A stretch of 64,000 nucleotides of DNA from Escherichia coli. GTDB taxonomy: Bacteria > Pseudomonadota > Gammaproteobacteria > Enterobacterales > Enterobacteriaceae. Location: the NCBI RefSeq assembly GCF_030013595.1, contig NZ_CP122769.1, one strand, 5' to 3'. Positions 9,001 through 24,000 of the stretch are shown piece by piece. Numbering within the stretch: the first letter of the stretch is position 1; the number at the start of each line of letters is the position of its first letter. Made by a program: the position numbers.

Positions 9001-12000
9001 GACTAACGAAAATCGAAGAAGTAATTTAGCACCCGGAGCCTAAACCGCCGGGTTAACTTTAGCTGGCGTTGCTGTTCTTTTTTCTGGCTTCGAAGACTAC
9101 GAATATAGCGCAGTTCTTCAGCGGTTAAATCATGGACGGTAAGAACATCATCGCCGTCAATCGGGTCAGCTGGTGGGCATAACTCACCTTCTAAAACAGA
9201 AGACCCTGAGTTCTCTTCTTCATCTTCAACCACTTCTAAAGGAGGCTGAGTATTGTTCAAATTCAGATCGGGATCCCGCTTATGAATCTGGAAGTATACT
9301 TTTCCGTCTTTCTTAATTTCGGTGTACTTGAGGTATCCTATCGATGCCAACTCTTCAAGAGCCTTTCTCACGGTAGCATTCTGACTATTTGCTCGTGTTT
9401 TGAGGTTCAGACGATTTTTCAGCCGAGTAAGGGATATCGGTATAGGATTTGGCGGTAATGACTCTATGAACGTATAGAGAGCCTGGGCGCTTTCCTTCTT
9501 GGCCAACTCCTTAATTGCCTTCAGCTGCATCAAAACCTTATGATCGTATTGATAGAGCTCGAAAATCTTAGGATCAACCTGAAGGACAACCTGATCTGAT
9601 TCCGGGTCTAACAGGGCAGACTGTACCAGATGCGTTGTATAGACTTTGGACGAGTTATTACTGGTGAACGACAAGGTAACGGATGCTAACCTGCGTAAGG
9701 AGGCGTCTATACGTTTTCTGGACGCTGTAGATGAGCGATAATTTTCAGGCGTACATAGCTTGAGGAATTCAGTGAATTTTAAGCTTATCGTGTCATTGTT
9801 AATCGGATGATTGGCATAGGTTCGAATGATGCCCATCCACGTCTTAAAATCTACTGACATATTAAGACGCTCACCGACAATTGAAATATTGGTGAACCCC
9901 TCGCTCTCCATTAAAGAGAGCGTCTGTAACTCTTTCGTTGCGTCAAAGCCAACCGTTTTATATTCCCGATTTTGACGCCCCACACTCTTTGGTGATGGGA
10001 CGAACAGCCCGAGCCGCATCAAAGCAATAGACTGCACCGTACGGTTGCTGTTAGGACGCAAAATGATGTCTTTACCTGATTCTTTCTCTCTAACAGAGAA
10101 AGCCCTGGTGACCAGGTCCTGCTGCTCAGTATCTTTCTCTTTAGTCATAATAAGTTATCACTGAATGTGTAAACAGATTGGTGAATAGTAAGCCCCAGCG
10201 AACTCTATGTCACTGGATGGATCATTGTGATGATCCATATCTGTGCATAAGTTCTACCTAAAAAAACGACTCCACTCATTAAAACTTGGCAAAAACTCTT
10301 TGCATACAATGACCTGCAACTCTTATCAACAACGGATCAGATCAAGTTAAAAAGATCTAATGAAAAGTCACTACTATTGTCGCTCTGATCACTACTGATG
10401 TCAAAAAACTCATTACCAACGTTATAATAATCACTACTAATGTCAAAATAATCACTACTGTTGTCACTGATCACGTCTCAGGCCTTGTGCCGTCTGGCCT
10501 GGAGGCAGCGGGGATCTCTTTTGATCTATCAGGAACACTAAGGTACTAATTATTGGAACTACCTTGTGGAAAATGGGGATAAATAAATGCTTAGTTCTTA
10601 TACAGGTCTCAACTTGCCTCCCTGATAAAAACTGTCGTCAAAGCTAAATCACAGCCACAGGCATTTTCGGTGGATAAATTTTTGAGAAATAGAAGCATAC
10701 ATGCAGACTCGTGTCGCAAGTAATTGAAAGTAATGATTTATTTAAATAATGCGAGTCACCTTACCTCACAGTGGAAGTTTAAGTCTAACCTCACTACCAT
10801 TGTCACTTAAAATCATTACCAACGTCGAAATAGTCTCTACCATTGTCTTTTAAGTCACTCCCGTTGTCACTTATGTCGCTACTGTTGTCAGTGACAATGC
10901 TCCAGCCCAGTAACCATGCGGCCTACAGCGTACCGGGATCTTCTTTGTACTCTCTGGCACCTTTGGGATCATTTATTGGATCTACATGAGGGATAAAATC
11001 TTTTGACGATTTCGTAGTGCAGTTATACCAGCGACTTAGCAAGACAAAAGCTGCAATTTAGTGACGAGTTACTAGTCTGCCCAACAAGAGCAATGCAGAG
11101 AAGATATGTGGTGAAATGACCATGGTAGTGAGTCTAATCACTACCATGGTCCGCAGTAAGCGTTACTTACGCAATGAACGTCGGACTGATTTGCAACAAC
11201 ATGGGCTACGGCGCATCAGAAGGCGGCCGTTGTGCTTCAGCAAAACAGCCCTGCTTTATTTTAATTCTTCAATGTTAATCATGAACTCAGATCTGCCAGT
11301 AAGGCCGGATACAGCAGGGAAAATAGGAAAGCTACGGCTGTCCCCGAGCCCCAAATCCAGTTGAAGCTCTTTGCTTTCACCTGGCATCGCAGAAACGCCA
11401 TTTACAGTCACGCCGAATGCAGCGTCCTTACGGACAGTAAGCACTGCGTCCTGAAGCCCTGTAGCGATTGAACCATCCTTTTTACGCAGCTGGCTGGCAT
11501 ACAGAACAGCCAGAGCAGTATTGTCAGATGTTTTGAGAGAAGCATTGACAGCTAAGGTTTTCAGATTCTCTAGCCTGACGAGATTGTTTGGAAGGTAGTT
11601 AAATTCGACTGAGCTTTCTTTAACGTTGTTCATCTCATCTTTGGCCTGAACTGTGAGAGTGTATGTTTCGCCTTCATTAAGAGACGGAAAGATCTTGGGA
11701 TAATTAGGTGCATACAGGTTGTTTCCCAGATTCACCCAAGACAATTCCACCGCATCAGAAACAGGGCCACCGCGAAGAGTCATACGGCTTAAGGATGGTT
11801 TAGTTAGAGCATCGGTGAGCTGTATACGGACGTTCTCCAGCCCATATACTGTTACGTTTTTGCTGATCGGTTTTCCTTCGTAGCTAATACTTACAGATGG
11901 TGCTGTATTATCAACGACAACTGTTTGATAAGGGAGGTTACCGGTATTGTTGAATGTATCTTGGGCATTAATCACCACGTTATAACTGCCTTCTGGTACC

Positions 12001-21000: not shown

Positions 21001-24000
21001 GAGGGATAAAACCCATTGCGTAAGCAACAATATTACGTGAGTGAGTCCTAACGACAGTTAAAGTCTTGGCTCTATATTTAAGCAGCAAAAACATTTAACT
21101 GTCTTGGAGTTTATTTAACTTAAAAACTGTTATTGCAGCATAATTTTTCGAATCAAATTCATAGAATTTTCTGACTTTTCCAGTCAAATGATAACGTTCA
21201 CCCAATAAAATGTGATCCTGTTTATCGGCCGTTAAAGCGATCCCGTCATTTCTAACTTTACCAGTAAATGTAAAAAAATAACTCCCTTTACTTTTTGCGT
21301 ACGCGGCCCTGACTTCAGTAAATGTTAGTTCAATGCTTATGACCTGGCCGATATTGTAGCTATGTTTTAAAATTTCTTGTTCATTTTCCGGAGTTTCAGA
21401 CAACATCACATCAAAAGTTGTAAAGAAACAATCCAGCTGGCGTTCTGTCAAGAAACGGTTATTGTCTAATTGCGCCAATATACTATTAGAAAACTTAGTG
21501 TTAGCCTTTTTTGCTTTCTCAATAAGGACGTGGTTTCTGGATTTCCATGCTTCGAGTGTTGGGTTAACACGCAGTTCCGGAATGTTATCGAGAAAGGTAA
21601 TTGGCTCTAGTGCCACTAATTTTTCAATAATGGGTCCAACTGTTTGTACCCCATGACACTTTTCACATAAATCAGCCCCTTTGTGGCCTGTGCCCGCACA
21701 TTCGTTACATTCTCTTTCGATAGGTGCATAATAATTTCCATCTCCGTTAAGTGATACATTCACTGAGGCTGGTACCATATGACCATCAAGAGTAAAGAAA
21801 AGAGATTTCATTTTCGAAACACCTCCAAACGTGCCTCTACGATTGCTACAGCTTCTTTCACAGTTTTTTCATAGTGGTCATGCCCTTCAGGAAATTGATC
21901 AAAACGTTTACCGTGTTCTAACTCTTCCATGTTGCGTTTAAGGACTTCATGAGTTAGAAGCAAATCACTATAATTATCGATAAGAGTCAGCTTTATAGGT
22001 TTAATCACTCAACTAATCCTCGTTTTTAATATTCCTTAAGGAGATCTCGAATTTCCAGAAGCTCTTCTAATTTTGGTTTAGAAACAATGATTGCTGTATT
22101 TTCGTCGTTAAGTAAAGACAATAAAATATTTAGCTTTTCATCATTCAAGATTATTTGAACACCATCATTGGAAAATATTACATTATTACTATTAACATTT
22201 TTGAACAAGTGTGCACTATCTCTACCAAATTTTAGTTCTGTTTGAGTATTCGTTATAGATTCCGTATGTGTACTTTCCACAAGCTCAAGAAATTCAGATT
22301 TTAGCCGTTCTGTTTTCTTATGCGAGAGGCGCTTAATACCCAAAGTCTTACGAGTGACTGCCGAATTTTTCTTTTCTGGTCCGCCTTTATTTAAGGTGTC
22401 TGGTCCTGCTCCAGCTGCATTGTGTTCAGGTATGCCTACAATTTTGCTCGTTGTAGTCTCAATATTCTTAACGCCAGGTAAGAAACCTTCTATATGTTTT
22501 AAAACCATTTTGTGATCGTTGGAATATTTTAACATTATTTCAATGGCGAGCGTTTTTTTGATTAGATTTAGGCTAATCAAACGTTGAAGCTCTAATGGCA
22601 TATCAAGGATTTTTAGCATATTACGAATTGCGGTAGTTGATCGTTGATATCGCATTGCTAGTTCTTCAACCGAATACCCGAGACTAACAGCATGAGCTAA
22701 TGCATGAGCTTGCCCAACCGGATTTAGCCCATTGCTTCTGTTACCATCGAGGTTCTCAAGGTATTCTTCAATTTCGTTTTTATAATCGATTAGGATAACA
22801 GATAATTTTGGAATATTAGCACCTTCAGAAATTGCTAATTTTAAGCCATGAAAACGAGTATGACCTTGACGAACTAAATATTTACCTTTTCTTTTTACGA
22901 CCTTGATCATATCAACCTGCCTTCCTTCCTTAAAGGCTTGTTTGATTGACACAATCATCGACTTGACAGGTTCTTGTTCGTAACACAAATCTCCGATTAC
23001 CGCCTCTCGGGGATTAAATCCCTTTTCAATTTCAACTAGATTAGTATCCACTTCAATGACTGTATGTTTGCTGTTGTTCATATCTTCCTCCTGTTTACTA
23101 CATGATACATGAACCTCAAATTTGCCAAATAGGGCTGATACATCTAAAAGGTAAACTCAAAAAATTTGCTTAATAAAATTAAAATAAAAACTGTCTTGAA
23201 TAAAACAATGATAGTAGACCCTCGTTCATTTCCGTTTGCGATCTGTAGATATTGTTAAAGGAGCGCTATTCCTTGTTTTATATGGACTTATCATTGTTTT
23301 CAACAGGATAGATCAATTCTTTAGATCACTAAAGATCAATAGAGTTCAAGTAAAGATCACGGCATCTTTAACTCATTGATTATAGTGACTTTATGAAAGG
23401 ATCCGGCATTCGGATGCATGCGAAAAGCATTTGAATGAATAAGGAAGGCATTTACTGGAATGCTTATGGCATTTAGGTTAATGCGTAAAAAGCATTTGCA
23501 AGAATATGTTATAAACAGTTTGCCAAATGAAAATCTTATCACCGACGAGTTAAGTTAATGATTAAAAACAACGAGTTAATCCATCCTTTTGACGTAACCA
23601 GTAATGAATCAGGTAAGACTTATCAACTGACGCCTAACTCGTCCAAGTCGGTTCAGCCCGTGGCCCTGTTGAGATTGAGTGTATTTACCCCTGTCGGCAC
23701 AAAAGAAAACCGCGACCGAAACTTTGAAGTTGATGCCTCTGATGAGCTTTCGTGTATGGAAATTGCAAGATCGGAGGGTTATGACGACATCAAGATAACT
23801 GGTGTCAAACTATCTATGTCTACCGACTTTAAGTGCTGGCTCGGGATCATCATGGCTTTCAGTAAATATGGTTTTACTTCCGAGAAGATTACCCTGACTT
23901 TTAACGAGTTTGCGAAGATGTGTGGTATCAGTTCAACAAACATCAACAAACGAACTCGTGCGCGCTTTAAAGAGTCATTAATGAACCTTGCATCGGTAGT

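What the first reader, a model, noticed from the sequence alone, without database searches (positions are those of the whole stretch)
10220..23358. GATC clusters at both replication-origin regions on a plasmid that encodes its own Dam methyltransferase
Five GATC sites lie within ~140 bp upstream of the first rep gene (10220..10357). Four lie within 48 bp at ~11-bp spacing upstream of the second rep gene (23311..23358), with another at 23240. Such density is characteristic of Dam/SeqA-controlled origins (oriC, P1 oriR). A Dam-family gene (19185..19997) lies between the two replicons, suggesting the plasmid secures methylation-dependent origin control or protection.
Basis: partly seen in the sequence, partly recalled or inferred. 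Interest (0 to 1): 0.5.

Follow-up and report, generated by a model that had tools for sequence, protein, structure and literature searches.

The report
Dam-site clusters at IncHI2 plasmid origins
The GATC clusters are real and belong to two phage-P1-type replication origins of a common IncHI2 resistance plasmid, where such Dam-methylation sites are a known family hallmark; a link to the plasmid's own Dam gene remains unproven.

Summary
The window is IncHI2 plasmid backbone, 100% identical to more than 1000 sequenced plasmids. Density alone is only modestly unusual; the case rests on location and homology.

Both Rep proteins are 41-45% identical to P1/P7 RepA. The second cluster (23311-23358) aligns in register with the annotated Dam sites of P7 oriR, in the order DnaA boxes, GATC heptamers, five iterons, rep. 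All four of its GATC persist in relatives whose iterons have changed completely.

In 53 non-redundant replicons of this Rep family, GATC is the most enriched 4-mer upstream of rep. The modal spacing is 11 bp.

The first cluster (10220-10357) is not the P1-type core. It lies in a 220-bp leader between the iterons and repHI2A, around the window's only perfect DnaA box. RepHI2A's two tandem P1-type cores lie further upstream and keep only 2 and 3 GATC.

The Dam gene (19185-19997) is a genuine Dam-family member with the GATC-contact residues conserved, and it is syntenic in IncHI1. All observed hosts are Dam-positive, so a role in origin control is conjecture.

Verdict: an ordinary, essentially known feature.

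The parts
7742..8570 (.). Iteron array downstream of repHI2A (incA-like). It has 10.3 copies of an 81-bp unit, each holding an inverted pair of iterons. Further iterons extend to about 8985.
9003..10148 (-). repHI2A initiator gene. The product is 41% identical to P7 RepA.
10217..10238 (.). Perfect inverted repeat ATGGATCAT-n4-ATGATCCAT carrying GATC 10220 and 10232. Both GATC are kept in the 76%-identical relative, although the repeat itself is not. It abuts a weak promoter-like site (10213->10185).
10242..10250 (-). DnaA box TTATGCACA, the only perfect TTATNCACA match in the 64-kb window. It is conserved in the divergent relative.
10323..10357 (.). DnaA-box-like TTATCAACA (10323-10331) followed by GATC 10335, 10340 and 10354 in an AT-rich stretch abutting the proximal iterons. 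GATC 10335 and 10354 are conserved in the relative.
10365..10470 (.). Proximal set of five 21-bp RepHI2A iterons. It contains the best promoter-like match (10404->10376).
10511..10584 (.). Proximal P1-type origin core, which aligns to the P7 oriR Dam sites and DnaA box. Only GATC 10513 and 10523 survive; the other heptamers read GGAAC, GGTAC and GGAAC.
10788..10893 (.). Distal set of five 21-bp RepHI2A iterons.
10935..10995 (.). Distal P1-type origin core with GATC 10937, 10967 and 10979 and a DnaA-box-like GAGGGATAA. It is 79-85% identical to the origin cores of P1-like phage-plasmids and IncHI1B-type plasmids.
19185..19997 (+). Dam-family N6-adenine DNA methyltransferase, 270 aa. The PGAP start at 19224 cuts off the KWAGGK motif.
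23288..23305 (+). Two degenerate tandem DnaA boxes, TTATCATTG and TTTTCAACA. The IncHI1 homologue reads TTATCCACG and TTTTCCACA.
23311..23358 (.). Origin core of the second replicon. Four wAGATCA heptamers align in register with the P7 oriR Dam sites and are conserved across the clade.
23400..23510 (+). Five iterons at 21-23-bp spacing (core GCATTT at 23405, 23426, 23447, 23468 and 23491). A conserved GATC at 23400 sits on the edge of the first iteron.
23558..24433 (+). Second rep gene, called repHI2C or RepHI1A(R478). The product is 45% identical to P7 RepA.
24566..25160 (.). Iteron array downstream of the second rep gene (incA-like), with iterons in both orientations.

Best explanation
**What it is.** The window is IncHI2 plasmid backbone carrying two iteron replicons of the P1/P7 RepA (RepFIB-like) family: RepHI2A, and RepHI2C, also called RepHI1A(R478).

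**Second cluster (shown by homology).** The cluster at 23311-23358 is the origin core of the second replicon. It consists of four GATC heptamers between DnaA boxes and five iterons, colinear with the Dam-methylation sites of P1/P7 oriR.

**How it most likely works (inferred from experiments on P1).** The fully Dam-methylated core is competent for Rep- and DnaA-driven opening. After firing, the hemimethylated GATC pairs on the same DNA face are bound by host SeqA. This sequesters the origin until Dam remethylates it.

**First cluster.** The cluster at 10220-10357 belongs to the same kind of control region, with 12 GATC over 760 bp, but it is not the canonical core. It occupies a 220-bp leader between the proximal iterons and repHI2A, around the only perfect DnaA box in the window. 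The two tandem P1-type cores of this replicon lie further upstream and have lost most of their GATC. The leader GATC sites probably act as extra SeqA/Dam-sensitive sites. They could affect origin opening next to the iterons, rep transcription, or both (inferred).

**The Dam gene.** It is a conserved, apparently orphan, GATC-type methyltransferase of the IncHI backbone. That it serves the origins is possible but not shown.
For: **Identity of the plasmid.** The region is 100% identical to more than 1000 IncHI2 plasmids, with repHI2 annotated.

**Rep proteins.** They are 45% and 41% identical to P7 RepA and 43% identical to each other, and both fall in phrog_775.

**Colinearity with P7 oriR.** Alignment A1 shows iterons, spacer, GATC heptamers and DnaA box in the same order as P7 oriR. 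The GenBank record of P7 annotates 5 Dam sites, a DnaA site and the incC iterons there. BLASTN links window 10511-10582 to P7/P1 oriR, and 10903-10984 to the origins of P1-like phage-plasmids.

**Conservation of the second cluster.** All four GATC are kept in register in a 73%-identical Citrobacter plasmid and in IncHI1 pHCM1. They are also largely kept in Pantoea and Chimaeribacter relatives with 59-62% Rep identity, whose iteron sequence is entirely different; the last heptamer is invariant.

**Family-wide pattern.** In 53 non-redundant replicons, GATC is the top-enriched 4-mer upstream of rep (2.98-fold). Density peaks at 36.9 per kb against about 4.5 per kb in the flanks. Adjacent spacing has its mode at 11 bp with a harmonic at 20-22 bp.

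**RepHI2A.** Of its 12 GATC, 8 are kept in a 76%-identical relative, including 10220 and 10232 in otherwise poorly conserved sequence. The DnaA box at 10242-10250 is unique in the window.

**Dam.** It scores 199.8 bits against TIGR00571 (cut-off 114.85). In the alignment to E. coli Dam it keeps DPPY, K9, Y119, N120, R124 and P134. A 71%-identical ortholog is syntenic between RepHI1B and RepHI1A in pHCM1.

Against: - No experiment on the Dam or SeqA dependence of the IncHI2 replicons was found or could be run.
- The primary description of these replicons (Page et al. 2001, Microbiology 147:1591) is not in the library.
- Density alone is statistically modest.
- The P1-type cores of RepHI2A keep only 2 and 3 of 5-6 GATC, while Pantoea and Xenorhabdus relatives keep 4-6. 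Dam dependence of that replicon may therefore be weakened.
- The DnaA boxes of the second origin are degenerate in IncHI2.
- Which of the three GATC-bearing segments of RepHI2A is the site of opening cannot be told from sequence.
- Promoter-like matches are no more frequent than in shuffles.
Confidence: 0.8

Rival explanations
1. The plasmid Dam has nothing to do with the origins. It is an orphan methyltransferase of an establishment or anti-restriction block, protecting against GATC-cutting enzymes or acting in general epigenetic or transfer-gene regulation. Its position between the replicons is just backbone synteny.
For: - All hosts of these plasmids and of the wider Rep family are Enterobacterales, which carry their own Dam (established knowledge).
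- The gene sits in a conserved block with a 563-aa DUF4942/MTase-domain protein and two ParB-like proteins.
- PADLOC classes it with orphan and Type II methyltransferases.
- Large conjugative plasmids commonly carry orphan dam or dcm genes (PMC11602122).
- No GATC lies in the dam upstream region 18817-19184.
Against: - In Dam-positive hosts, protecting GATC is redundant as well, so this role is no better explained than origin control.
- In PMC11602122, deleting one plasmid dam gene (pKAZ3, not an IncHI plasmid) gave no protection phenotype.
- No restriction partner was detected next to the gene.
- Near-universal retention argues for some selected function: about 1110 plasmids carry Dam at 95% identity or more, against about 1126 with RepHI2A at 95% identity or more.
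Confidence: 0.55
2. The first cluster (10220-10357) controls repHI2A transcription rather than origin firing. Its DnaA box, GATC-bearing inverted repeat and promoter-proximal GATC sites would make rep expression sensitive to DnaA and to methylation state.
For: - The cluster lies between the iterons and the rep ATG, not at the P1-type core position.
- The inverted repeat 10217-10238 abuts the -35 hexamer of a promoter-like site at 10213->10185. The DnaA box is 4 bp further upstream.
- GATC 10220 and 10232 are conserved although the flanking bases differ.
- The 220-bp leader exists only in the RepHI2A/L038 subclade.
Against: - Promoter-like matches are not above shuffle expectation.
- The better promoter match lies inside the iterons, as in P1.
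- The inverted repeat is not conserved as a repeat in the relative.
- GATC 10335-10354 are AT-rich and sit 8 bp from the iterons, which also suits a DNA-unwinding element.
Confidence: 0.35
3. The clusters are chance concentrations of a common tetranucleotide in AT-rich intergenic DNA.
For: Uniform-placement null: P = 0.13 for at least 4 in 50 bp and P = 0.27 for at least 5 in 150 bp. Other palindromes such as CCGG, AATT and TTAA reach similar or higher maxima somewhere in the window.
Against: - In-register conservation in relatives whose iterons have turned over.
- Colinearity with the annotated P7 Dam sites.
- Family-wide roughly 8-fold density peak and 11-bp periodicity.
Confidence: 0.02

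Closest known systems
P1/P7 plasmid-prophage origin oriR (RepA, incC/incA iterons, five GATC heptamers, DnaA boxes)
   Same: - The initiators are homologous, at 41-45% identity.
- The order is the same: DnaA box, GATC heptamers, spacer, five iterons, rep, and a second iteron array downstream.
- The GATC of the second cluster align in register with the P7 Dam sites.
   Different: - The iteron sequences are unrelated.
- The second origin has 4 rather than 5 GATC, an AT-rich rather than GC-rich spacer, and degenerate DnaA boxes.
- RepHI2A has two tandem origin modules with decayed GATC, plus an extra GATC/DnaA-box leader that P1/P7 lacks.
- Dam and SeqA dependence is shown for P1 and untested here.
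RepHI1A and RepHI1B of IncHI1 plasmids (R27, pHCM1)
   Same: - The RepHI1A initiator is 86% identical to the second Rep here, with the same four GATC in register.
- RepHI1B has four GATC at spacings of 11, 11 and 17 bp, then a GC-rich spacer and iterons.
- A dam ortholog (71% identity) lies between the two replicons in the same gene order.
   Different: - IncHI1 has consensus-like DnaA boxes (TTATCCACG, TTTTCCACA).
- RepHI1B is a single-module origin, whereas RepHI2A is a double-module origin.
RepFIB / REPI replicon of pColV-K30
   Same: It belongs to the same Rep family, and a role for adenine methylation in its replication control has been published (Gammie & Crosa 1991, cited in PMC2865523).
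   Different: It was not compared at sequence level here.
Vibrio cholerae chromosome 2 origin (ori2, RctB)
   Same: It is an iteron origin with a high GATC density, requires Dam, and is sequestered by SeqA (PMC2865523, PMC6090056).
   Different: In ori2 the GATC sit inside the iterons, and methylation is needed for initiator binding. Here the GATC lie outside the iterons: 0 of 5 iterons in the second origin contain one, and 1 of 10 in RepHI2A does.
E. coli oriC
   Same: GATC clusters near DnaA boxes, with SeqA sequestration of hemimethylated sites.
   Different: oriC has no Rep protein and no iterons, and there is no sequence homology.

Membership tests
P1/P7 oriR-type iteron replicon (P1 RepA / RepFIB family) | Initiator homologous to P1/P7 RepA | tested here: met
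   45% identity over 271 aa (E = 2e-79) and 41% over 269 aa (E = 6e-73). Both are in phrog_775. The second Rep has Pfam Rep3_N and Rep3_C.
P1/P7 oriR-type iteron replicon (P1 RepA / RepFIB family) | About five directly repeated iterons of about 19-21 bp between the origin core and rep | tested here: met
   Second replicon: five iterons at 23405-23498, spaced 21-23 bp. RepHI2A: two sets of five at 21-bp spacing, 10365-10470 and 10788-10893.
P1/P7 oriR-type iteron replicon (P1 RepA / RepFIB family) | Cluster of GATC heptamers at roughly helical spacing beside the iterons, colinear with the P1/P7 Dam sites | tested here: met
   Second origin: 4 of 5 positions are GATC and are conserved across the clade. 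RepHI2A cores: only 2 of 5 and 3 of 5 positions are GATC, so the feature is met in weakened form there.
P1/P7 oriR-type iteron replicon (P1 RepA / RepFIB family) | DnaA box or boxes at the outer end of the GATC core | tested here: inconclusive
   Second origin: TTATCATTG and TTTTCAACA, with 3 and 2 mismatches to TTATNCACA; the IncHI1 homologue has near-consensus boxes. RepHI2A cores have TGTGGAAAA, GGGGATAAA and GAGGGATAA. The only perfect box (10242-10250) is on the rep side of the iterons.
P1/P7 oriR-type iteron replicon (P1 RepA / RepFIB family) | Second, copy-control iteron array downstream of rep (incA-like) | tested here: met
   7742-8985 for RepHI2A; 24566-25160 for the second replicon.
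P1/P7 oriR-type iteron replicon (P1 RepA / RepFIB family) | Replication needs Dam methylation, and the hemimethylated core is bound by SeqA | not testable with these tools
   This needs dam and seqA hosts or in vitro binding. No published test for IncHI2 was found.
Dam family (TIGR00571) GATC-specific N6-adenine methyltransferase | Scores above the curated family cut-off | tested here: met
   199.8 bits against a cut-off of 114.85.
Dam family (TIGR00571) GATC-specific N6-adenine methyltransferase | Catalytic DPPY, the SAM-binding FxGxG motif, and the residues that contact GATC in E. coli Dam (K9, Y119, N120, L122, R124, P134) | tested here: met
   Alignment to 2g1p/4gol shows DPPY, EPFIGGG, and Y, N, R and P conserved, with L122 changed to M. 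K9 is present only if the start is 19185. The residue roles come from my knowledge of the E. coli and T4 Dam structures.
Dam family (TIGR00571) GATC-specific N6-adenine methyltransferase | Equivalog of the chromosomal E. coli Dam (NF008152) | tested here: not met
   152.1 bits against a cut-off of 441, and about 35% identity. It is a family member, not the host enzyme's ortholog.
Dam family (TIGR00571) GATC-specific N6-adenine methyltransferase | Actually methylates GATC; orphan (no cognate endonuclease) | tested here: inconclusive
   Activity is not testable here. The convergent neighbour 20006-20863 has no Pfam, PADLOC, NCBIfam or PDB-sequence match to any nuclease. A low-confidence model (pLDDT 57) weakly resembles RepE/pi winged-helix initiators, not a nuclease. 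In an IncHI2-bearing Salmonella, GATC methylation could not be assigned to one enzyme (PMC5347186).
Vibrio ori2-type origin (methylation needed for initiator binding) | A GATC inside each iteron | tested here: not met
   None of the five iterons of the second origin contains GATC. One of ten RepHI2A iterons does (10387), and it is not conserved.

The most novel reading that the evidence does not exclude
The IncHI backbone Dam may be a dedicated helper of the plasmid's own Dam-dependent origins. By raising local methylation capacity it would shorten SeqA sequestration. It would also quickly convert the hemimethylated duplex made after conjugative entry into a fully methylated, firing-competent origin. 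The two P1-type replicons would then be partly independent of host Dam level. Related to this, RepHI2A may have moved its methylation-sensitive sites from the decayed origin cores into a new rep-proximal leader.
Probability: 0.15. Interest if true: 0.5.

Novelty: already known. Interest (0 to 1): 0.2.

Why it matters
IncHI2 plasmids are major carriers of mcr and other resistance genes, so knowing how their two replicons are controlled is useful. However, the GATC clusters are the expected hallmark of P1-family origins. Both replicons and the plasmid dam gene are already annotated and published. The one open question is whether the conserved plasmid Dam feeds into origin control or into establishment after conjugation. 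If it does, it would be a plasmid-specific target and an example of a replicon carrying its own epigenetic licensing enzyme.

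Tried and rejected
- **Chance clustering.** Tested with a uniform-placement null and with other 4-bp palindromes. Density alone is weak evidence, but chance is rejected by conservation and homology.
- **Whole-window GATC enrichment or avoidance.** None: observed/expected is 0.82-0.91.
- **Another GATC cluster at 43024-43136.** It lies inside a coding region with irregular spacing, and was dismissed as chance.
- **Known RNA elements under the clusters.** None in Rfam over 7000-26000.
- **Promoter and terminator scans of both control regions and of the dam upstream region.** Nothing above shuffle expectation.
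- **Dam as half of a GATC restriction-modification pair with the convergent 285-aa gene.** No nuclease signal from Pfam, PADLOC, NCBIfam, PHROGs or PDB sequence search. The structure model was low-confidence, and profile-profile comparison with the Rep family was not significant.
- **Literature.** Page et al. 2001, Abeles & Austin 1987 and Abeles et al. 1993 are not held. No paper on IncHI Dam function was found.
- **A third P1-type core remnant at 10202-10252.** It is only about 65% similar to the distal core, so this stays a possibility and not a finding.

Full report
**1. The observation**

The Dam ORF at 19185-19997 is correct and begins MPIIKWAGGK.

These are the two densest GATC clusters in the window at 50-, 150- and 300-bp scales. 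The window as a whole is not GATC-rich, with 218 sites observed against 240-267 expected.

Density alone is not compelling. With 218 sites placed at random, a cluster of at least 4 in 50 bp turns up somewhere in 13% of trials, and at least 5 in 150 bp in 27%. Nine sites in 310 bp, the full extent around the first cluster, turn up in 0.2% of trials, and two separate clusters of at least 5 in 150 bp in 3.7%. The significance comes from where the clusters lie and from comparison with relatives.

**2. What the DNA is**

The region is 100% identical to more than 1000 IncHI2 plasmids in PLSDB, from Escherichia, Salmonella, Enterobacter, Klebsiella and Citrobacter. One example is pEGY1-MCR-1.

- The first rep gene is repHI2 (RepHI2A), 9003-10148 on the minus strand.
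- The second, 23558-24433 on the plus strand, is the replicon called RepHI1A(R478) by Page et al. 2001, or repHI2C in later nomenclature (PMC6339943).
- Both initiators are homologues of P1/P7 RepA, at 45% and 41% identity, and are 43% identical to each other.

**3. The second cluster is a P1-type origin core**

BLASTN and a five-way alignment show the same colinear order as P7 oriR: iterons, spacer, GATC heptamers, DnaA box. The GenBank record of P7 annotates five Dam methylation sites, a DnaA site and the incC iterons in that region.

The four wAGATCA heptamers at 23311-23358 occupy four of the five P7 Dam-site positions. Five iterons follow at 21-23-bp spacing, then rep, then a downstream iteron array at 24566-25160.

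- All four GATC are kept in register in a 73%-identical Citrobacter plasmid and in IncHI1 pHCM1.
- In Pantoea and Chimaeribacter relatives with only 59-62% Rep identity the iteron sequence is completely different, yet the heptamers persist. The last one, AAAGATCAC, is invariant in 12 of 12 sequences. This is the pattern expected if the heptamers are read by conserved host factors while the iterons co-evolve with Rep.
- GATC 23240 is not conserved. GATC 23400, at the edge of the first iteron, is conserved.

**4. A family-wide test**

A scan of one genome per species returned 80 loci encoding relatives of these Rep proteins. All are from Enterobacterales apart from three doubtful labels: two MAG bins and one Chryseobacterium-labelled isolate assembly. 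After removing near-duplicates, 53 remained.

- GATC is the single most enriched tetranucleotide in the 650 bp upstream of rep, at 2.98-fold.
- In the 70 exact-duplicate-filtered loci, GATC density peaks at 36.9 per kb between -300 and -200, against about 4.5 per kb in the flanks.
- Adjacent-site spacing has its mode at 11 bp, with a harmonic at 20-22 bp.
- 46 of 53 loci have at least 4 GATC within 70 bp, against 18 of 774 random flank segments.

The GATC cluster is therefore a hallmark of the whole family and not a peculiarity of this plasmid.

**5. The first cluster is something slightly different**

RepHI2A has two tandem P1-type modules upstream of rep.

- The proximal module consists of iterons at 10365-10470, a GC-rich spacer, and a core at 10511-10584.
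- The distal module consists of iterons at 10788-10893, a spacer, and a core at 10935-10995.
- The same double-module layout is found in Pantoea and Xenorhabdus relatives, where each core keeps 4-6 GATC. In IncHI2 the cores keep only 2 and 3, and the lost positions read GGAAC, GGTAC, TGTAC and GGCAC.

The leader contains:

- TTATCAACA plus three GATC (10323-10357) abutting the iterons;
- the only perfect DnaA box of the 64-kb window (10242-10250);
- a perfect inverted repeat, ATGGATCAT-n4-ATGATCCAT (10217-10238).

Against a 76%-identical relative, 8 of the 12 GATC in 10220-10979 are retained. These include 10220 and 10232, which sit in otherwise poorly conserved sequence. Whether the leader sites act on origin opening, on rep transcription, or on both cannot be decided from sequence. 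Promoter-like matches are no more frequent than in shuffles.

**6. The Dam gene**

The protein passes the curated Dam-family model, at 199.8 bits against a cut-off of 114.85. It does not pass the model for the E. coli Dam equivalog.

Aligned to E. coli Dam structures, it keeps DPPY, the SAM motif and the GATC-contact residues Y119, N120, R124 and P134. L122 is changed to M, as in T4 Dam. K9 is kept if translation starts at 19185. The roles of these residues come from my knowledge of the published structures. GATC specificity is therefore likely but not shown.

The gene is near-universal in IncHI2: about 1110 plasmids carry Dam at 95% identity or more, and about 1126 carry RepHI2A at 95% identity or more. 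A 71%-identical ortholog sits in the same gene order between RepHI1B and RepHI1A in IncHI1 pHCM1.

No nuclease partner was detected.

Its neighbours include a second candidate methyltransferase (DUF4942 plus an MTase domain) and two ParB-like proteins.

**7. Mechanism**

By homology with P1, the best-supported model runs in three steps:

1. The fully methylated core is competent for opening.
2. After firing, hemimethylated GATC pairs are bound by SeqA, which sequesters the origin.
3. Dam then resets the origin.

P1 replication is known to require methylated DNA, and its origin is under two levels of methylation control. This rests on Abeles & Austin 1987 and Abeles, Brendler & Austin 1993, cited in PMC2865523, together with my knowledge of Brendler et al. 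1995 on SeqA binding.

The GATC lie outside the iterons, so the Vibrio ori2 mechanism, in which methylation is needed for initiator binding, does not apply.

The homology and conservation are shown here. Dam and SeqA dependence of the IncHI2 origins is inferred.

**8.

It is not excluded, but it has no direct support.

- Every host seen already has Dam.
- Large conjugative plasmids often carry orphan dam genes of unclear function (PMC11602122).
- A plausible variant is that the plasmid enzyme speeds conversion of the hemimethylated post-conjugation duplex into a firing-competent origin. This is speculation.

**9. Novelty and score**

The replicons were characterised in 2001, the plasmid dam gene appears on published IncHI2 maps (PMC5347186), and Dam-site clusters are an annotated feature of P1/P7 oriR. 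The finding is real but ordinary.

- Interest: 0.2.
- The only open element is the function of the plasmid Dam.
- A secondary open point is the shift of GATC sites from decayed cores to a rep-proximal leader in RepHI2A.

Noticed in passing
window 10365-10584 and 10788-10995; L028, L052, L035, L026, L038 upstream of rep: The RepHI2A clade has two tandem copies of the whole origin module (DnaA box, GATC cluster, GC-rich spacer, five iterons). Pantoea and Xenorhabdus relatives keep 4-6 GATC per module, while IncHI2 keeps only 2 and 3.
   Followed up: partly
window 7742-8570 (and the ORF at 8006-8695, minus strand): There are 10.3 copies of an 81-bp repeat, each holding an inverted iteron pair, downstream of repHI2A. 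Because 81 bp is 27 codons, the array generates a probably spurious 229-aa ORF.
   Followed up: partly
window 9073-9078: There is one extra T in a T-run (T6 against T5 in pEGY1-MCR-1). This changes the last residues of RepHI2A and extends it from 362 to 381 aa. The PLSDB record identical to the window lists no repHI2 CDS. It may be a real variant or a homopolymer sequencing error.
   Followed up: partly
window 19185 versus 19224: The PGAP start for the Dam gene (19224, 257 aa) removes the conserved N-terminal KWAGGK motif, which contains the K9 equivalent. The ATG at 19185 (270 aa) is the more likely start.
   Followed up: yes
window 15714-17405 (-), 17653-18816 (-), 22026-23081 (-): A 563-aa protein with DUF4942 plus a methyltransferase domain (phrog_6263, 'DNA methyltransferase') and two ParB-like proteins flank the dam gene. 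The whole block is syntenic in IncHI1 pHCM1.
   Followed up: partly
window 20006-20863 (-): A 285-aa protein convergent with dam has homologues only in IncHI-type contexts (14 hits). A low-confidence model (pLDDT 57) gives its best, weak fold matches to the RepE, pi and pPS10 RepA winged-helix initiators. Profile comparison with the Rep family was not significant.
   Followed up: partly
window 11114-11151: An isolated inverted pair of RepHI2A-type iterons lies about 120 bp beyond the distal origin core, overlapping the start of a small ORF (11116-11364).
   Followed up: no
window 23288-23305 versus L008 18190-18212: The two DnaA boxes of the second origin are degenerate in IncHI2 (TTATCATTG, TTTTCAACA) but near-consensus in IncHI1 and in most Pantoea relatives.
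   Followed up: partly
window 23400; L008 18303 and 4657; L028: A GATC at the junction between the spacer and the first iteron recurs in several members of the family (RepHI2C, RepHI1A, RepHI1B and a Pantoea replicon), separate from the heptamer cluster.
   Followed up: no
window 11256-13712 (-): An 818-aa Ig-like-domain protein gene lies next to the RepHI2A origin region. IncHI1 pHCM1 has several paralogues around RepHI1B.
   Followed up: no
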